Source: Chloroflexota bacterium
Lineage (GTDB): Bacteria > Chloroflexota > UBA11872 > UBA12225
Direction of reading: 5' to 3'
DNA length: 64,000 nt
Assembly (NCBI GenBank): GCA_947446285.1
Contig: CANFGH010000004.1
Coordinates: 12,926 to 76,925, forward strand
This document shows, piece by piece, positions 5,848-44,722 of the stretch (positions are counted from its first letter, which is position 1; each line of letters opens with the position of its first letter). Below the pieces are notes generated by a model. It was given only the letters and a program-made list of their open reading frames with translations. It was not told the DNA's origin and did no database searches. A program made the position numbers and the translations under genes.

Positions 5848-7404
5848 TCAATCGTGATACGACGCTTGCCGTTCAAATGGGAAAAGCGGCTTCCGGCGAT
5901 GCACGTAGACGAATGAGTTGAGGTCCGCCGACGTGACCCCGGCGGTATTCGCGAGGATCACTTCCGAGGCGATTGGCTGGTAGGCAGGACGTGGCGAAAC
6001 GACCCCCTTCGCCACGATGATCTGCTTCTGTTCGGGACGAACTCCGCACGAATACATCTGCTCAATGCTTGTGTTGCCGATGCGATGACTGGTCAGGACC
6101 AGCGTGACGCCTCCTGCAAGCTCCAGGACACCCGTCGCACCGCCATCGAAGAAGCGCTGGCCACCGTGTGTGGGACGCCAATCCTCAAAGACTCCGTCGG
6201 TGATCGCACGCACCGTCCCGGTGACCCGCACAGGCTTGCCGTGACGCCCATCGGTCTTGCCACCAACTGAAAGGGTCACTTGCGCCCCAGGGCCGACCTC
6301 CATGCATGCTGCGACGGCCTCGGGGTCATACAAGGTCTGGAGATAGTTCTTGACACCCTGTTTCAGGGCAATCTCAAGCAGAAATGTCGAGTCTGCCGGT
6401 CCGCCACCACCGATGTTGTCTCCGACATCCATGATGACCACCGGTCCAGGTGCCGACGCAGCGTGGGCGATGGCATCGGCAGGGGAATACACATCACCGA
6501 CAAACGCCTCGCGGTTTTCCCAAGCCCTCGCCGCCATCCACCTCGAGCCTCGGGCCGCAAGGTCGGGGTCTCCGTCGGAAATCGCCAGGAATGCCATTCC
6601 CATTTCCTCGACGTCGGCATACGGATACCCTTCTGCCGCACTGGCTGAAAGCATCCCCGGCCAACGTTCGACGGTATCGACATCGGCAACGACAGAGGCC
6701 ATCGGCTCCTCGCCGGTGTATTGCTTGATGATGTTGATCACCATCGGAGGCGTTTCAAGGTGCTGGACCGGACGGATCTCACCCCGGATCGTGCGAAGGA
6801 TCAGGTTGGCACATTCACGTGCCCTTACCCGGGAATCGATGTGTGGGTTTGTCCGGTAGATCGTGGTGATCGTCGTGGCATCGATCATCCTGTGGGTGAT
6901 GTTGCCGTGCATGTCCAGCGCCATGCCGACTGGCACGTCCGGGCCGACGACGGCGCGCACACGTGACGCGACCTCTCCATCCGCGTCTGGGAACCCCTCG
7001 GCAACTGCGGCTCCATGTTGGGCAAGGAGAACCCCATCCCACGGACCATGCTTCTGAAGCAGGTCAATGATTTCTCCGACGATCCGGCCGAACGCGTCAG
7101 ACGTGATCTGCGCACAAGGTCCAGTGGTGGTGTAGAGCAGCGGGACAACGGTGACCCCTGGTTCGCTCCCTACCTCAAGAAATCCGGCAACCGTCGTCTG
7201 CGCCGTTGCATGGACCGCAAGGACTTCGTCCCCACGCAGGATCCCGTCAGCTTCGAAACTCTCATACCGCGCGGGCACGTCTGAGAACGTGTTCGTCTCA
7301 TGCGCAATACCGACCAGCGCGAGGCGGATTGGGCGGGCTTCGGATCGAACAGTCGTGGTCACGCAAACCTCCAGGATCGCATCGGAACTGGTCACGAGGG
7401 TCAC
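5848..7404 (-). CDS. M81 family metallopeptidase (MlrC-like, DUF1485 N-terminal domain)
   Basis: N-terminal IRLALVGIAHETNTFS and overall 518-aa length resemble MlrC/microcystinase C-like proteins. Confidence 0.8.
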   Translation of the reverse strand: MTLVTSSDAILEVCVTTTVRSEARPIRLALVGIAHETNTFSDVPARYESFEADGILRGDEVLAVHATAQTTVAGFLEVGSEPGVTVVPLLYTTTGPCAQITSDAFGRIVGEIIDLLQKHGPWDGVLLAQHGAAVAEGFPDADGEVASRVRAVVGPDVPVGMALDMHGNITHRMIDATTITTIYRTNPHIDSRVRARECANLILRTIRGEIRPVQHLETPPMVINIIKQYTGEEPMASVVADVDTVERWPGMLSASAAEGYPYADVEEMGMAFLAISDGDPDLAARGSRWMAARAWENREAFVGDVYSPADAIAHAASAPGPVVIMDVGDNIGGGGPADSTFLLEIALKQGVKNYLQTLYDPEAVAACMEVGPGAQVTLSVGGKTDGRHGKPVRVTGTVRAITDGVFEDWRPTHGGQRFFDGGATGVLELAGGVTLVLTSHRIGNTSIEQMYSCGVRPEQKQIIVAKGVVSPRPAYQPIASEVILANTAGVTSADLNSFVYVHRRKPLFPFERQASYHD

Positions 7405-7548: not shown

Positions 7549-7776
7549 CTACACCCGACCCGTGAGTTCCCCAGGGTTGGGAAAGCGACCACTGTGCTTC
7601 TTGGAGAAGAGAACCTCGGAGCCGCGTCGAACTTCGAACACGCCACCGCTACCCGGGATCAGCCGAACCTGGTTTGGCATCCCCGCCTGCTTGAACTCTG
7701 CCGCCAGACCGGCGGCTCGCTTTTCATACCCTCAAGACGTGCAATATTCAATCGTGATCTCGACATTTTCGGCCAT
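7549..7776 (-). CDS. SelW/SelT/Rdx-family thioredoxin-fold selenoprotein with in-frame UGA (Sec15)
   Basis: My translation is MAENVEITIEYCTSUGYEKRAAGLAAEFKQAGMPNQVRLIPGSGGVFEVRRGSEVLFSKKHSGRFPNPGELTGRV. The TGA at 7734-7732 falls at the second position of the CxxC/CxxU motif. A GGGAG Shine-Dalgarno sits 5 nt upstream of the ATG. A hairpin lies downstream of the UGA. Confidence 0.75.
7700..7716 (-). promoter_or_regulatory. Putative bacterial SECIS hairpin (GCCGCC-GGUCU-GGCGGC)
   Basis: The stem starts 15 nt after the UGA. The apical GGUCUG is in the reading frame as GGU CUG, and resembles my recollection of the E. coli fdhF SECIS apical sequence. Confidence 0.55.
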
Positions 7777-7887
7777 GGGAACTCCCTTTCACACGGTGCC
7801 AATGATCCCGACCACGCAGGTCCGGAGCGGAACCGCAATGCCCGTCCGGGCGTGCCGCCATTCTGCCACACTTCCGCGTGAACCCAA

Positions 7888-8319
7888 ATGCCGTCCGGCT
7901 CAAAGTTCGAACCTGAAAGCATTGTGATGTGTGACGCGTCTACCATTCGTGCACTTCAGGACCAGACCGGCGAGCGCATCTCCAGTGACGAGGGATGGCA
8001 GTCCCGTTCCAATGCGGACTCCGCGACCGCGAACATCTTTCTGGAACAGGTAATCGCGCGCACGGATGCCGTCATCGCAGAGTGCTTCAGCGCGCAAACT
8101 TACGGAAACAAGTCCCGCAGCCCAAACGAGATTGCCGACGATGTCGCCGATAACGCGCGTCTCCTCCTCCGCGATCTTTGCGAACTCTGGAGAGGGGTTG
8201 CGTTTGAGACTACATCGTTTCACCCGCATGCTGGTACCACGCTGTTTCCCGGGGTTTCCGATCTCGATGAATGGCTTTCGGCGCTCAACACAAGAATGCA
8301 AATGACTGGACTGAGATGA
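7888..8319 (+). CDS. Hypothetical protein (start may be the ATG at 7927)
   Basis: Coding-like GC3 bias. Its stop overlaps the next gene's ATG (ATGA at 8316-8319). No family recognised. Confidence 0.4.
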   Translation: MPSGSKFEPESIVMCDASTIRALQDQTGERISSDEGWQSRSNADSATANIFLEQVIARTDAVIAECFSAQTYGNKSRSPNEIADDVADNARLLLRDLCELWRGVAFETTSFHPHAGTTLFPGVSDLDEWLSALNTRMQMTGLR

Positions 8320-22924: not shown

Positions 22925-23000
22925 GACGTGGCCCACCAGTCCAACCAACAAGGCTCCAGTCACGCACCATGAATTGCACACCGAAGGACGACCGTTCACA

Positions 23001-26000
23001 ATGACCAGCAAGACCACTCCAAACCAGCCAGCAAGTCACGAAGTTGAAAGTGCGCTGAATGACCCTTCCGGTGGCATTGGTGGCATCACCGCGCTGTCGA
23101 TCCGCAGGCCACTCTTGATGCTCATGGTCATCCTCTCGGTGATGATCTTTGGACTGATCGCCTACGGACGCCTAGGCGTTGACTTGTTTCCATCGGTGAA
23201 TTTCCCGGTGGTCAGTGTCAGCATCCCATATCCGGGTGCGAGCCCCGAGGTCGTTGAATCCCTTGTGACTCGACCGGTCGAGGACGCGGTGTCCGGCCTC
23301 GCAGACCTTGACACGATCAATTCGACGTCGTCAGAAGGCGTGGCGGTCGTGATCGTCACCTTCAAGGACAAGGCAGACCCTCAGACGGTCGCCATTGAGG
23401 TGGAAAAGCGGGTCAACGGAATTCGTGGCCAGCTACCCAATGACATCATTGCCCCCACAATCCTCAAATTCGACTTCACTGCCGCCCCCATCATCACTCT
23501 CGGACTGACGGGCGCCAACGTCACTCCTGCGCAGGCTTTCCGGATTGCAGATGAATTGGTGCGTCCGAAGCTGGAGACCACAAACGGTGTTGGTCAGGTC
23601 TCTATCTTTGGAGGCCAGCAGCGGGAAGTTCAGGTCAAGGTTGATCCAAATCGCCTTCGTGCCTACAACCTGACCCTCGCTCAGGTCTCCCAGGCACTTG
23701 GATCAGAAAACATCGACGCACCCGGTGGTCGCGTCGACGACGGCTCCCGGAACCTCAACATCCGCCTCGATGCAAGATTCCGCTCGGTCGATCAGATCAG
23801 GGATACGGTCGTACAGGCTTTGCCTACAGGCGGCACCATCCGGGTGCGTGACCTTGCTGAGGTGATCGACGGATACAAGGAACAGACCTTCCTGGCCCGC
23901 GTCAATGGGAGCCCCGGCGTCGGTATTTCCGTCTCAAAGCAATCGTCCTCAAACGTGACCCAAACAGCCGCCAACGTGCGGGCAACCCTGGCAAAAATAC
24001 GGACGACCCTCCCTGAGGGCGTCCAACTCATCGGTATTCAGGACCAGTCCGAATTCATCCAGACTTCCCTGGCTGGTGTTCAGCGAACCCTGCTGGAAGC
24101 GAACATCCTTACCGGTCTTGTCCTCCTTGCATTTCTTCATTCGTGGAGGAGCACACTGATCGTCCTGTTGGCGATCCCGACCTCGCTCATCGCCACGTTC
24201 GCCTTCATGTATTTGCAGGGGTTTACATTAAACTTCCTGACAACTCTTGCCTTGACGCTCACGGTCGGCATCCTCGTCGACGACAGTATCGTCGTGCTGG
24301 AAAACATCTTCCAGTTCCTCAAGCGCGGTGACTCCCCTCGAGTTGCCGCCGTACGGGGTCGCGCGGAAATTGGTCTCGCGGCCATCGCGATCACCTTGGT
24401 GGACGTCGTCGTCTTCGCTCCGGTAGGCCTTCTTTCGGGCCAGATCGGGCAGTTCTTCCGTCAGTTCGGGTTCACCGTTGTCGCCGCGACCCTCGCATCG
24501 CTCGCGGTCAGTTTCACACTCACTCCCTTGCTTGCGTCCCGCTGGCTTACATCGGAAGACGAACACGGAACCGGACCGCTCGCAATCTTCGGTCGCTGGT
24601 GGGACCGAGGCTTCGATCGACTCGAAGATCGGTACCGCGGGATCCTTCGCTGGTCACTCAGCCACCGTTGGGTCATCATGTTGGTGGCTGTCCTGTCATT
24701 TGCCGGGAGCATTGCCCTGCCGGCTGCAGGTCTGGTGAAGACCAGCTTCTTCCCGAACCAGGATCAGGGCACGTTCAATATCATTCTCGAACTCCCCCCG
24801 GGATCCACCCTTGACGCTACCGCGTCTGCGGTTGCTCAAATGGAAGCAGGGATCACCAAACTTCCCGAGTTCAAGGCCATCTATTCGGTCATCGGCCAAG
24901 GGGAAGGCGGAACGTCCCGCCAGTCTCGATTTGCAAATCTCCAAGTCATCCTCGTCGGGAAGCGCGAACGCACCAAATCAGTCGAACAGCTGGCACGGGA
25001 AGTCAAGGCTTTCGGTGAAGGTTTCCCCGGCCTGAAGGTTCGCGCAGGTGTTCCAGGGCCTGGAGGAGGCGCCGCGCAGCCGGTTAGCCTTCGTGTGTAT
25101 GGCGACGATCTCAAGGTCCTCAACGATCTGGCCGATAAGATCATCGGCAAGTTCCGCGAGACTGGTGGTCTCGTCGACATCACCAACAGCGGTCAAGCGG
25201 GTGCCCCGGAATACGTTGTCACGCTTGACCGGGCAAAGGCCGCTGATCTCGGTCTGTCCGCTGGCCAAGTGGCCCAGACGCTGAGGACCGCGTACGCCGG
25301 TTCTGTGGCCACAACCCTGCGTCGCGACCAGACTTCCGGAACCGCGAGTGGAGTTGACGTTCGTGTCCAGCTGACGGACGACACTCGAAAGGACATCACC
25401 CTTCTCCAGCAGGTGCCCCTCATTAGCCCTGCAAAGGGTGGCCAAGTTTACCTCGGCCAAATTGCGACCGTCGTTCCAGCTGCCGGTCCATCGCAGATCC
25501 AGCGCACCGACCGGCAGCGCGCGCTCACGATCGGTGCCAACCTCGGTGCAGGCCTGATCCTGAGTGATGTGACGAAACGGGTCAATGAAGCAATCGCTTC
25601 CGTTGAAGTTCCAGCAGGCTACCGGATCAAGATCGGCGGACAGGCTGACCAGCAGAACAACACGTTTACTGAATTCGGCAACGCGCTTCTCCTCTCGATC
25701 GCCCTTGTCTACATCCTCCTTGTAGCCCTCTACGAGTCTCTCCTCTATCCGCTGATCGTCATCGCGGCGCTGCCACTTGCCCTTGTCGGGGCAATGGGAG
25801 GGCTGGCCCTCGGACAAGAGACCCTGAATACCTTTTCGCTTATCGGGATCATCGCCCTCGTCGGCCTCGTTGGCAAGAACTCGATCCTTGTGATCGACTA
25901 CACCAACACTCTCCGGCGGGAGCAAGGGATGGGTAGATTTGACGCGCTCATGGAAGCGGGGCCACGACGGCTTCGTCCGATCCTCATGACCTCATCAGCA

Positions 26001-28637
26001 CTGATCTTCGCGCAGATCCCGCTGATGCTCAAGATCGAAGACGGCGCGGAGGTCCAGGCACCGATTGGCTGGGTCATTTTCGGCGGGATGATCAGTTCCA
26101 CCATTCTCGCCCTCGTCTTCGTCCCCACGCTGTACACACTCGTCGACGACTTCCAGAACTGGATTTTGCGGGGGTTCAAGCGCGACCGGTCGCGTGGACC
26201 TAAGGAGAAGGATATGAATGGATCGGGTTCCTCCACATCGGGCAACAACGACGAGATCGTTGTGCGTCCGGCCACGGAGAAGGTTGGCGTCGGGGCCACC
26301 GTCTCGCGCATCGCCACCACTGGCACCAACCTCGCAGTTGCAATCGTTGCCGTCGGAGGACTGTTCCTGAGTGCTTGCGGAACCCAGCCAGACACCGCCA
26401 AGGCTGCCCCGGTTGCGCCACCACTCAATGTGGCGGTCGTCGACGCTCGCAAGGAAACGGTTCGTGCGTCCGTGACCAGCAGTGGCGCGGTTGAGGCAAC
26501 GGATCAGGTTTCAGTCAGTACAAAGGTTTCGGGACGGGTCACCCGCCTCGACGCCGAAGTCGGCCAGAACGTGAAGGCCGGGCAACTGATCGCCGAACTT
26601 GATCGCGTGATCATCGAAGCCCAAGTTGCCCAAGCCGAAGCCGGACTGATGGGTGCCCAGGTCCGCTTGGGCCAACTCGAACGGGGACCACGCGCTGACG
26701 ATGTCGCCGTGGCCGCCGCCCAGCGCACCGCTGCCGAGAAGCAAGCCGACGCCGTCGCATCGCAAGCGGCTGTCGCAGAACAGTCCCTGACCACCTTTGA
26801 CGCCCAGATTGATGCCTCCACCAGCCAGGCCAACGCCTCCAAGGCGTCGGCACAGGCAGCAAAGACGCAGTCCCAAGGCGCACGTGCCCAGGCAAGCGGC
26901 GCGCGCAACCAGGCCAATGCCGCTCGCGCTCAGGCAAACGCCGCCAAAGTCCGCCTTGACCAGCTGAAGAACCCGCGTCCCGAAGACCTCGCTCTTCTTG
27001 AGAGCCAGGTCGAGACTGCCAAGATCCGACTTTCCCAGGCGTCCCAGCGTGACGAGGAAATCCGGGTTGTCCAGGCACAGGTCGAAGCCGCCCGCCTCGC
27101 CCTTCAGCAGGCGCAGGATCCGGCCCGCCCGGAACAGCTCCGGGCCGCTCAGGCACAGCTCGATGTCGCCAAGGCGACGCTGTCGAACCTCACCGAGGCT
27201 CCAGTCCGCGCTGAAGACCTTGAATCGATCCGTCTGGCGTATGAGAGCGCCGACAAGGCGTACGAAGCATCCGGTGACAGCCTGCGAATCGCCGAGAAGG
27301 CATATGACGCGGCCAAGCGCAGCCGGTCCACGTACGGCCCAGCCGTCGTGTCCGACTCGGTTCTCGCCCAGGCCGAAGGTGGTGTCGTCGCAGCTCAGGC
27401 AAATATCGAGCAAGCACGGATCCGCCGTGACACCGCCCGCGAGTCCTACAACAAGGCCCAAGCCGGCGCGACAGGTTGGGACCTCCGCAAGACCCAACTC
27501 GCCGTCGAAGCCGCGCAGGCCACCGTTGACCTGACCCGCAATCCTGACCCGGTCCGCGTCAAGAATGCCCAACTCACCCTCGAACAGGCTCAACTCAACC
27601 TCGAACTCCGGCAGCGCCAGATTGGCTTCGACCTCCAGACCGCCAAGGAAGGCCTGAAGGTTGCCGAGAACCAGCGCGCCAAGGTCGTCAACCCCGGAGA
27701 GTTCGACATCAAGTCCCTTGAAGAGGCTTCAAAGGCCGCTGAGGCCCAGGCACTCGGTGCGGAAGCTTCGGCCCAAGCCGCCGAAGCCAGCGCAGACGCC
27801 TCTGCAATCCAGGCAGAGGCTGCGGCTTCACAGGCCGGCGCCGCGGCCGCTCAGGTCAACGCTCTCTTGTCGCAGCGCACTGGGGCCGAATTCCAGATAA
27901 CAGGTGCCCGCAGTCAAGCCGACGGGGCGCGCGCAACCGCCGACCAGGCGGCTAGTGCGTACAAGTTGCGTGCGAACCCTTACACAGAGGACGACCTCAA
28001 GACCGCTCGTGTCGGTGTGGCTCAGGCCGAGGCGGCCGTCCGCCTCGGCCAAGCCAACCTTGCCGAAACCTACGTCTATGCGCCCATCGATGGCGTGATT
28101 ACCGCCCGGAACACCTCCATCGGATCACTGCTCAATCCGGGCCAACCAGTCGTCACCATCATTTCATCTGCCATCGAAATCACGGTCCCGGTTGAGGAAG
28201 CGAAGGTCGGTTCCGTCAAAGAAGGCCAAGCCGTCACGATGACCTCTCCCGCCCTTCCCGGAGTTTCGCTCGAAGGGAAGATCAACGCTGTCACTCCATC
28301 GGGTGACACCCGTAACCGTTCGTTCACCGCCCGCGTCCGCCTGGTGAAGCCCGACAGCCGACTGCGTCCGGGCATGTTCGTCAACACATCCATTGCCACC
28401 GAAGAGCGAGCGAACGCCATCGTGGTGAACCGCGAGGCCATCATCCTGACCAACGGCAAGAGCCAACTCTTCATAGTTGGAGCTGGCAACAAGGTTGAGA
28501 GCAGGGCCATCAAGGTGGGAATCTCCACGGGCAGCCTCGTGGAGGTTCTCGAAGGCGTGAGCGCCGGCGACAAGGTCATTGTCACGGGGGTCGAGGATCT
28601 CCGGGACGGACAGGTGGTCACCCCGGTATCGAAGTAG
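23001..28637 (+). CDS. RND (AcrB/HAE1-like) efflux permease fused in frame to a TM/lipobox segment and a periplasmic adaptor (MFP) with a giant coiled coil
   Basis: There is no in-frame stop from 23001 to 28637. The N-terminal ~1,070 aa are typical RND (SIRRPLLMLMV..FPSVNFPVVSV..). The segment ..LFLSAC (Cys codon 26376-26378) follows. Lipoyl, hairpin, beta-barrel and MP domains of an adaptor come next (VSGRVTRLDAEVGQNVKAGQLIAELD ... YVYAPIDGVI ...). The TTG at 22974 in the track is a less likely start than the ATG at 23001. Confidence 0.8.
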   Translation: MTSKTTPNQPASHEVESALNDPSGGIGGITALSIRRPLLMLMVILSVMIFGLIAYGRLGVDLFPSVNFPVVSVSIPYPGASPEVVESLVTRPVEDAVSGLADLDTINSTSSEGVAVVIVTFKDKADPQTVAIEVEKRVNGIRGQLPNDIIAPTILKFDFTAAPIITLGLTGANVTPAQAFRIADELVRPKLETTNGVGQVSIFGGQQREVQVKVDPNRLRAYNLTLAQVSQALGSENIDAPGGRVDDGSRNLNIRLDARFRSVDQIRDTVVQALPTGGTIRVRDLAEVIDGYKEQTFLARVNGSPGVGISVSKQSSSNVTQTAANVRATLAKIRTTLPEGVQLIGIQDQSEFIQTSLAGVQRTLLEANILTGLVLLAFLHSWRSTLIVLLAIPTSLIATFAFMYLQGFTLNFLTTLALTLTVGILVDDSIVVLENIFQFLKRGDSPRVAAVRGRAEIGLAAIAITLVDVVVFAPVGLLSGQIGQFFRQFGFTVVAATLASLAVSFTLTPLLASRWLTSEDEHGTGPLAIFGRWWDRGFDRLEDRYRGILRWSLSHRWVIMLVAVLSFAGSIALPAAGLVKTSFFPNQDQGTFNIILELPPGSTLDATASAVAQMEAGITKLPEFKAIYSVIGQGEGGTSRQSRFANLQVILVGKRERTKSVEQLAREVKAFGEGFPGLKVRAGVPGPGGGAAQPVSLRVYGDDLKVLNDLADKIIGKFRETGGLVDITNSGQAGAPEYVVTLDRAKAADLGLSAGQVAQTLRTAYAGSVATTLRRDQTSGTASGVDVRVQLTDDTRKDITLLQQVPLISPAKGGQVYLGQIATVVPAAGPSQIQRTDRQRALTIGANLGAGLILSDVTKRVNEAIASVEVPAGYRIKIGGQADQQNNTFTEFGNALLLSIALVYILLVALYESLLYPLIVIAALPLALVGAMGGLALGQETLNTFSLIGIIALVGLVGKNSILVIDYTNTLRREQGMGRFDALMEAGPRRLRPILMTSSALIFAQIPLMLKIEDGAEVQAPIGWVIFGGMISSTILALVFVPTLYTLVDDFQNWILRGFKRDRSRGPKEKDMNGSGSSTSGNNDEIVVRPATEKVGVGATVSRIATTGTNLAVAIVAVGGLFLSACGTQPDTAKAAPVAPPLNVAVVDARKETVRASVTSSGAVEATDQVSVSTKVSGRVTRLDAEVGQNVKAGQLIAELDRVIIEAQVAQAEAGLMGAQVRLGQLERGPRADDVAVAAAQRTAAEKQADAVASQAAVAEQSLTTFDAQIDASTSQANASKASAQAAKTQSQGARAQASGARNQANAARAQANAAKVRLDQLKNPRPEDLALLESQVETAKIRLSQASQRDEEIRVVQAQVEAARLALQQAQDPARPEQLRAAQAQLDVAKATLSNLTEAPVRAEDLESIRLAYESADKAYEASGDSLRIAEKAYDAAKRSRSTYGPAVVSDSVLAQAEGGVVAAQANIEQARIRRDTARESYNKAQAGATGWDLRKTQLAVEAAQATVDLTRNPDPVRVKNAQLTLEQAQLNLELRQRQIGFDLQTAKEGLKVAENQRAKVVNPGEFDIKSLEEASKAAEAQALGAEASAQAAEASADASAIQAEAAASQAGAAAAQVNALLSQRTGAEFQITGARSQADGARATADQAASAYKLRANPYTEDDLKTARVGVAQAEAAVRLGQANLAETYVYAPIDGVITARNTSIGSLLNPGQPVVTIISSAIEITVPVEEAKVGSVKEGQAVTMTSPALPGVSLEGKINAVTPSGDTRNRSFTARVRLVKPDSRLRPGMFVNTSIATEERANAIVVNREAIILTNGKSQLFIVGAGNKVESRAIKVGISTGSLVEVLEGVSAGDKVIVTGVEDLRDGQVVTPVSK

Positions 28638-43816: not shown

Positions 43817-44722
43817 GTGAGCACCGAAGGCGGGGCCGCCGGGGCGGCAATATCTCTACGCGCAACCCTTGCGAACTCCAAGTGGTTGGGCACTGCATGC
43901 CCCAAATGCAGCGAAGGGTTTGCGGTTGCCGACCAGGTAGTCCTGTGCCCGTCATGTTTCTCAGCGCACCACGCTGCTTGCTGGCGAGAGAACGGGAATA
44001 CGTGCGCCAAGGACCAGACGCCTGGTCGCATCATCGAGCCCCGTGGGCGCGGTGCCTCGCCCGCATCTGAGGCTCCCGCTCCGGTTCAGGCTCCAGCTTC
44101 GGCTGGGCCAGTCGCAGCACTCGCAGCAGTTGCACGACCCGCCGCTCCGGCCAAGCCTGCTGCACCCGCCGCCCCGGTGAAGGGTGCCGGCCCCGCAGTG
44201 CGCGACGCCAAGGGCCTCCGTCCGATCGATGGTGTGCGTGCTCGAATTCAATCAGCGACGAATGACCTTGCGCCCGTCTTTGGCACCGCCATCGACGAAG
44301 TTACCGTGACCGTTCCACCTGAAAATCTTCCCGAAGCGGCACGCAGGCTGAAGGAAACCGACGGGCTGAAGTTCGATTACCTGAGATGCCTGAGCGGCGT
44401 TGATTACCAGTCAGACGGCATCGAGGTGGTCTACCACTTGTTCAGCACCCGGCTGGCACAGAAGTGCGTTCTCAAAACCCGTTTGGCAGCCGAGGGCGAC
44501 GCCGTTGGGACGGTTACCACGGTCTGGGCAGGTGCCGACTGGCACGAACGAGAAACCGCCGAAATGTTCAACATCCGGTTTGAGGGGCACCCATACCCCG
44601 AACCACTTCTTTTGGAACGCGATGACCAAGGCACCATCGTTCCCGGACCGGTTCTTCTTAAGCGCTTCAAGTTGCGCCCCAAGGAACCGCCCGCTCAGTA
44701 TGGCTTTCCCGAGCAAGAGTAG
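43817..44722 (+). CDS. nuoC: NADH-quinone oxidoreductase subunit C with an N-terminal zinc-finger (prokaryotic RING-like) domain and a Pro/Ala linker
   Basis: The C-terminal ~160 aa are canonical NuoC (FDYLRCLSGVDY...WHERETAEMFNIRFEGHP). The N-terminus has CPKC-x12-CPSC-x3-HH-x2-CW-x7-C. Confidence 0.85.
   Translation: MSTEGGAAGAAISLRATLANSKWLGTACPKCSEGFAVADQVVLCPSCFSAHHAACWRENGNTCAKDQTPGRIIEPRGRGASPASEAPAPVQAPASAGPVAALAAVARPAAPAKPAAPAAPVKGAGPAVRDAKGLRPIDGVRARIQSATNDLAPVFGTAIDEVTVTVPPENLPEAARRLKETDGLKFDYLRCLSGVDYQSDGIEVVYHLFSTRLAQKCVLKTRLAAEGDAVGTVTTVWAGADWHERETAEMFNIRFEGHPYPEPLLLERDDQGTIVPGPVLLKRFKLRPKEPPAQYGFPEQE

What the first reader, a model, noticed from the sequence alone, without database searches (positions are those of the whole stretch)
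7549..7776. Hidden SelW/Rdx-family selenoprotein: C-T-S-U redox motif with in-frame TGA
No ORF-track entry covers this frame because the TGA at 7734-7732 (minus) splits it. Reading through gives a 75-aa protein with the hallmarks of the Rdx/SelW fold:
- a short beta-strand (VEITIEY);
- CxxU at the strand/helix junction;
- PGSGGVFEV;
- a C-terminal GRFP segment.
The TGA falls exactly where homologs carry the second redox Cys or Sec. A GGGAG Shine-Dalgarno sequence precedes the ATG, and a hairpin follows the TGA. Standard gene callers would miss or truncate this gene.
Basis: partly seen in the sequence, partly recalled or inferred. Interest (0 to 1): 0.7.

Follow-up and report, generated by a model that had tools for sequence, protein, structure and literature searches.

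The report
Mis-annotated SelW-like bacterial selenoprotein gene
This is a real 75-codon gene for a small SelW/Rdx-type redox protein whose in-frame TGA almost certainly encodes selenocysteine; the family has been known since about 2005, so this is a missed annotation rather than new biology.

Summary
Window 7776-7549 (minus strand) reads MAENVEITIEYCTS*GYEK...GRFPNPGELTGRV, with TGA at 7734-7732.

- **Family:** with the TGA read as Cys, the product scores 70 bits on Pfam Rdx (cutoff 22.6). It models as the β1-CxxU-α1 thioredoxin-like fold and superposes on bacterial SelW-related crystal structures (TM about 0.86).
- **TGA conservation:** of the 80 closest homologs in species-representative genomes from at least 8 phyla, 75 carry TGA at this codon and 5 carry TGC/TGT. 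The peptide upstream of the TGA (IEYCxx) is conserved.
- **TGA is a normal stop here:** it ends 21 of 40 long ORFs in the window.
- **SECIS-like hairpin:** window 7716-7700 (GCCGCC-GGUCU-GGCGGC), conserved in 78 TGA-form genes with compensatory changes, including a pair of synonymous third-codon sites. Its loop pentamer is identical to that of the E. coli fdhF SECIS, one codon further from the UGA.
- **Public annotation:** records call only a 43- or 52-aa fragment.

The gene belongs to the "SelW-like" prokaryotic selenoprotein family (Zhang et al. 2005). Interest is low.

The parts
7549..7776 (-). Full coding sequence of the SelW-like (Rdx family) selenoprotein: 75 codons including Sec15, plus the TAG stop at 7551-7549.
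   Evidence: Translation. Pfam PF10262 at 70.4 bits (cutoff 22.6) and TIGR02174 at 53.9 bits (cutoff 34.2). PDB homologs. Fold match.
7782..7788 (-). Shine-Dalgarno-like AAGGGAG, 5 nt upstream of the ATG at 7776-7774.
   Evidence: Read from the sequence. Invariant in 12 related sequences.
7741..7743 (-). TGC codon for Cys12, the first residue of the C-T-S-U redox motif.
   Evidence: The Cys is conserved in all 80 homologous loci.
7732..7734 (-). In-frame TGA, codon 15, read as selenocysteine.
   Evidence: TGA at the homologous codon in 75 of 80 species loci and TGC/TGT in 5. TGA in all close relatives except one contig. TGA is a normal stop in this genome, ending 21 of 40 long ORFs.
7700..7716 (-). 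SECIS-like hairpin inside the coding sequence: 5' arm 7716-7711 (GCCGCC), loop 7710-7706 (GGUCU), 3' arm 7705-7700 (GGCGGC). The stem starts 15 nt after the UGA and encodes A-A-G-L-A-A of helix α1.
   Evidence: Local fold -13.1 kcal/mol, z = -2.05. Helix kept in 78 TGA-form homologs: 87% of cells paired versus at most 55% in shifted registers, covariation score 0.249 versus 0.130 in shuffles (0 of 500 as high), compensatory changes at 5 of 8 pairs. The loop is identical to the E. coli fdhF SECIS loop.
7549..7680 (-). The 43-codon fragment (MPNQVRL...) that public gene calls report in place of the full gene.
   Evidence: ORF list. P0012 is called at this place in NCBI GCA_947442665.1 and in ENA/Logan contigs that are 99.8-99.99% identical to the window.

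Best explanation
Window 7776-7549 (minus strand) is an intact gene for a 75-residue SelW-like (Rdx family) selenoprotein of a freshwater Chloroflexota bacterium.

**Shown:**
- The product has the thioredoxin-like Rdx fold, with C12-T-S-(TGA)15 in the loop between strand β1 and helix α1.
- The TGA and the coding sequence on both sides of it are conserved across many phyla.
- A hairpin with a G-U-containing apical loop sits at a fixed distance downstream of the TGA and shows compensatory changes.

**Inferred:**
- During translation, the hairpin (7716-7700) acts as a bacterial SECIS element. It recruits SelB·GTP·Sec-tRNA(Sec) to the ribosome paused at UGA 7734-7732, so selenocysteine is inserted instead of termination.
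- The mature protein uses the Cys12/Sec15 pair as a selenenylsulfide/thiol-selenol redox couple, that is, as a small thiol-dependent oxidoreductase. Its physiological substrate is unknown, as it is for the whole family.
- The same nucleotides are under two constraints: the SECIS stem also encodes the A-A-G-L-A-A stretch of helix α1.
For: **Family and fold**
- Pfam Rdx E = 1.5e-19; TIGR02174 above its cutoff.
- PDB sequence matches to bacterial SelW-related proteins: 2fa8 at E = 1.4e-10, plus 3dex, 2ojl, 2oka, 2obk and 2p0g.
- AF2 model: pLDDT 85, β1 at residues 7-12, CxxU loop, α1 at 18-30, then β2-β4.
- Foldseek TM 0.85-0.88 and rmsd 1.3-1.4 Å to the same structures.

**Sec/Cys pairing**
- Among the 80 best loci from one-genome-per-species contigs, 75 have TGA and 5 have TGC/TGT at this codon. 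The phyla include Chloroflexota, Bacillota, Gemmatimonadota, Acidobacteriota, Myxococcota, Planctomycetota, Armatimonadota and Cloacimonadota.
- IEYCxx is conserved upstream of the TGA. Distant metagenomic homologs show the same.

**Purifying selection upstream of the TGA in sister species**
- Codons 1-14 are 90-95% identical.
- The 3' intergenic spacer is 77-79% identical, and the neighbouring MlrC and PLD genes are 86-89%.

**TGA is not reassigned**
- It terminates 21 of 40 long ORFs in the window.

**SECIS**
- Gapless alignment of 78 TGA-form genes.
- The helix (columns 18-25 with 29-36) has 87% of cells paired, versus 18-55% in shifted registers. No shuffle out of 500 reached the observed covariation score.
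- The pair at columns 18/36 joins two synonymous third-codon positions and reads GC 26, AU 11, CG 5, UA 4, GU 5.
- The loop G at column 26 is at least 90% conserved.
- Cys and Gly forms mostly lack the helix (3-5 of 8 pairs, against a mean of 7.0 for Sec forms).
- The window's loop GGUCU occupies nt 25-29 from the U of UGA. The E. coli fdhF SECIS loop GGUCU occupies nt 22-26.

**Published precedent**
- Sec-using Chloroflexota are known (PMC1794560; PMC13326102).
Against: - No selA, selB, selD or tRNA-Sec was found in the 64-kb window or in the related loci I hold (protein probes over 93 loci; tRNA scan of 60 of them). I could not reach the rest of the genome, so the Sec machinery is unverified for this organism.
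- No second selenoprotein candidate lies in the window.
- The single-sequence thermodynamic signal is weak. The 76-nt segment is no more stable than shuffles (z = +0.61), and the local hairpin reaches only z = -2.05.
- Comparable hairpins follow 28 other TGA-split ORFs in this 61% GC window, so the hairpin counts only because of the comparative evidence.
- No Rfam family matches.
- One near-identical contig (L011) has GGA in place of TGA.
- No selenium incorporation or redox activity has been measured.
Confidence: 0.9

Rival explanations
1. The TGA is a true stop. The locus is a dead or truncated Rdx gene, and at most the 43-52-aa C-terminal fragment (as annotated in public records) is made.
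For: Public gene calls stop short: 43 aa (P0012) and 52 aa (P0002). TGA is the commonest stop codon in the window. The Sec machinery was not located.
Against: - The same TGA is kept in 75 of 80 species across at least 8 phyla, with the upstream IEYCxx peptide, start codon and Shine-Dalgarno sequence conserved.
- Codons 1-14 are more conserved than the flanking DNA in sister species.
- A fragment lacking β1 and the CxxU motif cannot form the Rdx fold.
- The 52-aa call needs a non-ATG start inside helix α1.
Confidence: 0.03
2. The UGA is decoded, but not as selenocysteine. Instead it is read by near-cognate or suppressor read-through (Trp, Cys, Gly or Arg), possibly stimulated by the downstream hairpin, or under an alternative genetic code.
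For: The Sec machinery is unverified for this genome. Public catalogues hold homologs written with Trp at this site (P0019). A real Gly variant exists (L011 and L097).
Against: - TGA ends 21 of 40 ORFs, so there is no code 4 or code 25 here.
- The Trp in P0019 is a caller artefact: the DNA is TGA.
- The site aligns with the catalytic Cys of CxxC homologs, which is the classic Sec/Cys pair.
- The hairpin has the geometry and loop sequence of a SelB-binding SECIS.
- The family is an established selenoprotein family (PMC1088965).
Confidence: 0.04
3. The hairpin is not a SECIS. It is either a plus-strand intrinsic terminator or a by-product of GC-rich Ala-Ala-Gly-Leu-Ala-Ala codons.
For: The terminator scan calls GCCGCC-AGACC-GGCGGC followed by TCGCTTTTCA on the plus strand. 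The stem is made of GCN Ala codons, and hairpins are frequent in this GC-rich DNA.
Against: - The opposite-strand T-run is present in only 4 of 78 homologs, and no plus-strand gene ends there.
- Synonymous-site covariation at columns 18/36, together with compensatory changes that alter the amino acids in step (for example GCUUCC/GGAGGC = A-S-S-L-E-A and GCUACC/GGUAGC), points to selection on the RNA.
- Cys and Gly forms mostly lose the helix.
Confidence: 0.03
4. The TGA is a sequencing or assembly error for TGC/TGT, so the gene is an ordinary Cys form.
For: None specific. One contig (L011) differs at exactly this codon.
Against: TGA is seen in more than 20 independent assemblies of this lineage from different projects: NCBI MAGs, ENA, Logan, Lake Biwa, Lake Baikal and UBA. 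It is also seen in 75 other species.
Confidence: 0.005

Closest known systems
Prokaryotic SelW-like selenoproteins (Zhang, Fomenko & Gladyshev 2005, PMC1088965; Zhang et al. 2006, PMC1794560); Pfam Rdx PF10262; NCBIfam TIGR02174 CXXU_selWTH
   Same: Small (about 75-90 aa) single-domain protein. CxxU motif between β1 and α1. In-frame UGA followed by a coding-region stem-loop with a small G-containing apical loop. Sec forms outnumber Cys forms. Frequent in aerobic aquatic bacteria.
   Different: Nothing essential. This copy comes from a freshwater Chloroflexota (TK10/UBA2235-like) lineage, where public records annotate it only as a 43/52-aa hypothetical or 'Rdx family' fragment. It scores below the cutoff of the narrower equivalog NF041051 SelTWH_Campy (80.8 versus 88 bits).
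Cys-containing bacterial Rdx proteins with solved structures (2fa8 Atu0228, 2obk, 2ojl, 2oka, 3dex, 2p0g)
   Same: Same fold (TM 0.85-0.88, rmsd 1.3-1.4 Å). 30-38% identity. The motif sits at the same position.
   Different: These proteins carry CxxC (C-T-Q-C), are about 25 residues longer at the C-terminus, have an R-A-A-W-x-A-Q-E-L helix α1, and have no SECIS-type hairpin (4-5 of 8 positions pair).
E. coli fdhF SECIS element (the reference bacterial SECIS bound by SelB)
   Same: Hairpin inside the coding sequence just 3' of the UGA. Identical apical pentamer GGUCU, encoded in frame as GGU-CUG (Gly-Leu). GC-rich upper stem.
   Different: The loop lies one codon further from the UGA (nt 25-29 versus 22-26). 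The upper stem is a perfect 6-7 bp helix with no counterpart of the bulged U17 of fdhF (the bulge is from my own knowledge of the literature, not tested here). No extended lower stem was evident.
Vertebrate selenoprotein W (mouse SelW, 2npb)
   Same: Rdx family, CxxU motif, thioredoxin-like fold. Function still unclear; the literature suggests glutathione-linked redox activity.
   Different: Weak structural match to the model (TM 0.58, 18% identity). The eukaryotic SECIS lies in the 3' UTR and uses SBP2/eEFSec rather than a coding-region hairpin bound by SelB (PMC1088965, Figure 7 legend).

Membership tests
Rdx / SelW-SelT-SelH family (Pfam PF10262, TIGR02174) | Profile HMM score above the curated cutoff over the whole domain | tested here: met
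   PF10262 at 70.4 bits versus 22.6, covering profile positions 1-72 of 74. TIGR02174 at 53.9 bits versus 34.2. The TGA was read as Cys for scoring.
Rdx / SelW-SelT-SelH family (Pfam PF10262, TIGR02174) | Thioredoxin-like β1-α1-β2-β3-β4 fold | tested here: met
   AF2 model of the near-identical P0001 (92% identity to the window protein; the Gly15 variant found in L011): pLDDT 85, E7-12 H18-30 E37-42 E47-51 E54-58. Foldseek top hits are all bacterial SelW-related structures at TM 0.85-0.88.
Rdx / SelW-SelT-SelH family (Pfam PF10262, TIGR02174) | CxxC or CxxU redox motif in the loop between β1 and α1 | tested here: met
   C12-T-S-(TGA)15 lies directly after strand 7-12 and before helix 18-30. 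It aligns with C-T-Q-C of 2fa8 and 3dex.
Rdx / SelW-SelT-SelH family (Pfam PF10262, TIGR02174) | Thiol/selenol redox activity | not testable with these tools
   Needs biochemistry. The substrate is unknown for the whole family (PMC1088965).
NCBIfam NF041051 SelTWH_Campy (equivalog) | Score above the equivalog cutoff | tested here: not met
   80.8 bits versus a cutoff of 88. The gene is therefore filed under the broader subfamily only.
Bacterial selenoprotein gene (SelB/SECIS-dependent UGA recoding) | In-frame UGA aligned with Cys in homologs (a Sec/Cys pair), with conserved coding sequence on both sides | tested here: met
   75 TGA versus 5 TGC/TGT among 80 species, with IEYCxx conserved upstream. 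Codons 1-14 are 90-95% identical in sister species against 77-79% for the 3' spacer.
Bacterial selenoprotein gene (SelB/SECIS-dependent UGA recoding) | [quoted passage not shown] | tested here: met
   Hairpin at 7716-7700. 87% of cells paired across 78 homologs, with compensatory changes in 5 of 8 pairs, and no shuffle out of 500 as high. Loop G at least 90% conserved. Loop identical to that of fdhF. Criterion as stated in PMC1088965.
Bacterial selenoprotein gene (SelB/SECIS-dependent UGA recoding) | UGA is otherwise a stop codon in the organism | tested here: met
   21 of 40 long ORFs in the window end in TGA.
Bacterial selenoprotein gene (SelB/SECIS-dependent UGA recoding) | selA, selB, selC (tRNA-Sec) and selD present in the same genome | not testable with these tools
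   Absent from the 64-kb window. tblastn with E. coli SelA/SelB/SelD found nothing in the 93 related loci, and ARAGORN found no tRNA-Sec in the 60 of them scanned.
Bacterial selenoprotein gene (SelB/SECIS-dependent UGA recoding) | Selenium actually incorporated at the UGA position | not testable with these tools
   Needs 75Se labelling or mass spectrometry.

The most novel reading that the evidence does not exclude
Because the Sec machinery could not be located, the evidence does not strictly exclude one unusual reading: this freshwater Chloroflexota lineage decodes the conserved UGA-plus-hairpin without canonical SelA/SelB/tRNA-Sec, for example by hairpin-stimulated insertion of a standard amino acid. 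A milder variant is that it keeps a full Sec machinery for this single 75-residue protein. The isolated GGA (Gly) allele in L011, and the genuine CxxG relatives that lack the hairpin, would then mark escape routes from selenium dependence.
Probability: 0.04. Interest if true: 0.7.

Novelty: new member of a known kind. Interest (0 to 1): 0.2.

Why it matters
**Practical value.** The gene is truncated to 43 or 52 aa in every public record I found for this lineage (NCBI MAGs, ENA, Logan). In some records a spurious antisense ORF is called over the missing N-terminus. In other catalogues the Sec codon of homologs is written as Trp. Correcting this adds a selenoprotein to an abundant, uncultured freshwater Chloroflexota group, which implies that these bacteria need selenium.

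**Teaching value.** It also gives a clean example of dual coding: a SECIS stem that also encodes helix α1 (A-A-G-L-A-A), with compensatory RNA changes that pull the amino-acid sequence along.

It does not change what is known about selenoproteins. The SelW-like family, its CxxU motif and its SECIS were described in 2005, and systematic mis-annotation of such genes is a recognised problem (BSepDB, PMC13326102).

Tried and rejected
**Searches for the Sec machinery**
- Scans of the window: ARAGORN, Rfam at gathering threshold and Pfam on 40 ORFs. Nothing found.
- tblastn with E. coli SelD/SelA/SelB against the window plus 93 related loci gave no hit. A tRNA scan of 60 of those loci found no tRNA-Sec.
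- I decided against a word-indexed homolog search with E. coli SelD. The Rdx query had collected only 7 candidates, so a Chloroflexota ortholog at about 35-40% identity would probably not be collected or ranked, and it could not be tied to this genome anyway.
- BSepDB supplementary tables, which might list Sec-using genomes, are not held.

**Other checks that led nowhere**
- A permissive Rfam scan of 7640-7800 gave only a chance SrbA match at E = 1.6. No curated bacterial SECIS family matched.
- A second selenoprotein in the window: of 419 TGA-split ORFs, 28 have a suitable hairpin, but all except the Rdx gene are off-frame or antisense shadows of called genes.
- A conserved gene neighbour that might hint at function: only a phosphofructokinase-like gene downstream in Gemmatimonadales, which is lineage synteny. 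Nothing is shared across phyla. In the window's lineage the neighbours are a PLD-like gene and an MlrC/M81 peptidase.

**Readings considered and rejected**
- The plus-strand terminator reading of the hairpin is rejected, because the T-run is present in only 4 of 78 homologs.
- 'CxxW' database proteins as real Trp forms is rejected for P0019, the one checked, whose DNA is TGA.
- The L011 Gly variant as a lineage-wide Sec loss is rejected, because three contigs of the same strain type, identical over the 131 nt compared, have TGA.

Full report
**Observation.** The minus strand of window 7776-7549 reads ATG GCC GAA AAT GTC GAG ATC ACG ATT GAA TAT TGC ACG TCT TGA GGG TAT ... and translates to MAENVEITIEYCTS*GYEKRAAGLAAEFKQAGMPNQVRLIPGSGGVFEVRRGSEVLFSKKHSGRFPNPGELTGRV*. 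AAGGGAG lies 5 nt before the ATG. An in-frame stop five codons upstream leaves the ATG at 7776 as the only possible start. The mechanical ORF list holds only the last 43 codons of this frame (7549-7680).

**Family and fold.** With the TGA read as Cys, the product matches Pfam Rdx (PF10262) at 70.4 bits against a cutoff of 22.6, over essentially the whole profile. It also matches TIGR02174 (SelT/SelW/SelH) above its cutoff. It falls just below the narrower equivalog NF041051. By sequence it matches six solved bacterial SelW-related proteins, the best being 2fa8 at E = 1.4e-10, with C-T-S-(TGA) aligned to their C-T-Q-C. An AlphaFold2 model of the near-identical protein P0001 (pLDDT 85) has β1 at residues 7-12, then the motif loop, then helix 18-30 and three more strands. 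It superposes on those crystal structures at TM 0.85-0.88 and rmsd 1.3-1.4 Å.

**Organism and annotation state.** The window is 99.8-99.99% identical to contigs from ENA, Logan and NCBI assembly GCA_947442665.1. It is 84-86% identical over 15-17 kb to MAGs labelled Chloroflexi/Chloroflexota (Lake Biwa TK10 bin, UBA2235, Baikal-deep-G104) and to several labelled, apparently wrongly, 'Proteobacteria bacterium'. Synteny (PLD-like gene, Rdx, MlrC/M81 peptidase) is shared. In all of these records the gene is called as a 43- or 52-aa fragment. Some of them also call a 59-70-aa antisense ORF over the uncalled N-terminus.

**Is the TGA a codon?**
- The TGA is kept in sister species whose flanking genes are only 86-89% identical. 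Codons 1-14 are 90-95% identical, against 77-79% for the spacer after the stop codon.
- Two distant metagenomic homologs (57% and 46% identity), annotated as N-terminally truncated, read IEYCTG*GY and VEYCTA*GY when extended upstream.
- A scan of one genome per species with a family alignment found 589 relatives. Among the best 80 loci, 75 have TGA at exactly this codon and 5 have TGC/TGT. The IEYCxx peptide is conserved in front of it. The loci span Chloroflexota, Bacillota, Gemmatimonadota, Acidobacteriota, Myxococcota, Planctomycetota, Armatimonadota, Cloacimonadota and others.
- TGA is not reassigned in this genome: it ends 21 of the 40 long ORFs in the window.

This is the standard comparative signature of a Sec codon. 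It rules out a pseudogene, a sequencing error and an alternative genetic code.

**The hairpin.** Fifteen nucleotides after the UGA lies GCCGCC-GGUCU-GGCGGC (7716-7700). On its own it is only modestly unusual: -13.1 kcal/mol and z = -2.05. The wider 76 nt are not unusual at all, and similar hairpins follow 28 other TGA-split ORFs in this GC-rich window. The comparative evidence is what counts.

- In a gapless alignment of 78 TGA-form genes, the helix (columns 18-25 with 29-36) has 87% of cells paired, against 18-55% for registers shifted by 1-3 nt.
- Five of its eight pairs show changes on both sides.
- None of 500 shuffles reaches the observed covariation score.
- The outermost pair joins two synonymous third-codon positions (Arg CGN and Ala GCN) and occurs as GC 26, AU 11, CG 5, UA 4 and GU 5. 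Protein constraints cannot explain that.
- Where inner pairs change, the amino acids change with them (for example GCUUCC/GGAGGC and GCUACC/GGUAGC).
- The loop keeps a G (at least 90%) followed mostly by U.
- Cys- and Gly-form relatives mostly lack the helix: 3-5 of 8 positions pair, against a mean of 7.0 in Sec forms. One Cys form (L023) keeps all 8 pairs.
- RNAalifold independently recovers the core of the helix.
- The E. coli fdhF sequence, fetched for direct comparison, has the same GGUCU loop at nt 22-26 from the U of UGA, against nt 25-29 here. That is one codon further out.
- A terminator-like call on the opposite strand is a coincidence of this one sequence: the T-run is present in only 4 of 78 homologs.

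**What could not be shown.** The window holds no tRNA, no Rfam match and no SelA/SelB/SelD. tblastn with E. coli SelA/SelB/SelD found nothing in the 93 related loci, and a tRNA scan of 60 of them found no tRNA-Sec. There is no second selenoprotein candidate in the window. No conserved neighbour across phyla hints at a specific pathway.

[quoted passage not shown] A 2026 database paper states that truncated annotation of bacterial selenoprotein genes is systematic, and lists Dehalococcoidia (Chloroflexota) among the most selenoprotein-rich organisms (PMC13326102). The gene here is therefore a further, un-annotated member of a known family.

**Verdict.** Novelty: new member of a known kind. Interest is low (0.2); the value lies in correcting the annotation and in a neat example of an RNA element and a protein helix sharing the same nucleotides.

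Noticed in passing
L011:144-371 (ENA GROS21-1 scaffold_145935), compared with L104-L106: One 1.35-kb contig of this lineage has GGA (Gly) where all others have TGA, with the SECIS hairpin intact. Three contigs of the same strain type are otherwise identical and carry TGA. It is a rare allele or an assembly error. It is the source of the only full-length (75-aa) protein for this lineage among my search hits (P0001).
   Followed up: yes
L097:1001-1303 (P0028); also P0039, P0058, P0118, P0146 and P0168 by protein sequence: A set of Rdx homologs reads CxxG. For P0028 the DNA is a genuine GGA, and the downstream hairpin is gone (3 of 8 pairs). So a real Cys-x-x-Gly subgroup exists, one nucleotide away from TGA. 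This is an unusual replacement for Sec, which is normally replaced by Cys.
   Followed up: partly
L096:1001-1243 (P0019), and many representatives reading CxxW: Public protein catalogues hold many homologs with Trp at the Sec position. For P0019 the DNA is TGA, and the JGI call wrote it as W. Such entries hide Sec forms as apparent CxxW proteins.
   Followed up: partly
L020: TGA codons at 6799 and 7113: A Bacillota MAG carries two tandem Sec-form copies of the gene about 300 nt apart, each with its own hairpin.
   Followed up: no
L023:10040-10087: A Myxococcales Cys-form (TGC) homolog still has all 8 pairs of the SECIS-type helix and the GGUCU loop. This suggests a recent Sec-to-Cys conversion that left a fossil SECIS.
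   Followed up: partly
window 7700-7716 and alignment A3: The SECIS stem-loop nucleotides also encode A-A-G-L-A-A at the start of helix α1. Compensatory stem changes change the peptide (A-S-S-L-E-A in L058, A-T-G-L-V-A in L067), so RNA structure appears to shape the protein sequence.
   Followed up: partly
L001-L010, about 9775-9969 in L001 coordinates (window plus strand, about 7740-7930): NCBI MAG annotations call a 59-70-aa ORF antisense to the uncalled N-terminus of the Rdx gene. It is probably a spurious call that fills the gap left by the truncated annotation.
   Followed up: no
window 22974-28637 (+): A single 1887-codon ORF combines a complete AcrB-type RND transporter (residues 39-1057) with HlyD/membrane-fusion domains (about 1179-1803). 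It is either a fused pump-adaptor protein or two genes joined in this assembly.
   Followed up: no
window 43817-44722 (+): The NuoC-like (30-kDa) subunit gene of the nuo cluster carries an N-terminal Prok-RING_1 zinc-finger domain (residues 25-66).
   Followed up: no
Records RFML01, RGAM01, RFVP01 and others (L001-L010): Several NCBI MAGs of this lineage are labelled 'Proteobacteria/Pseudomonadota bacterium', while near-identical records and the GTDB-representative titles say Chloroflexi/Chloroflexota. This is a likely taxonomic mislabel.
   Followed up: no
Cluster of P0002, member P0014: A 395-aa lipoprotein-like sequence (MKRLAAALVAGT...) is listed as a member of the same 90% cluster as the 43-52-aa Rdx fragments. 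This looks like a clustering artefact.
   Followed up: no
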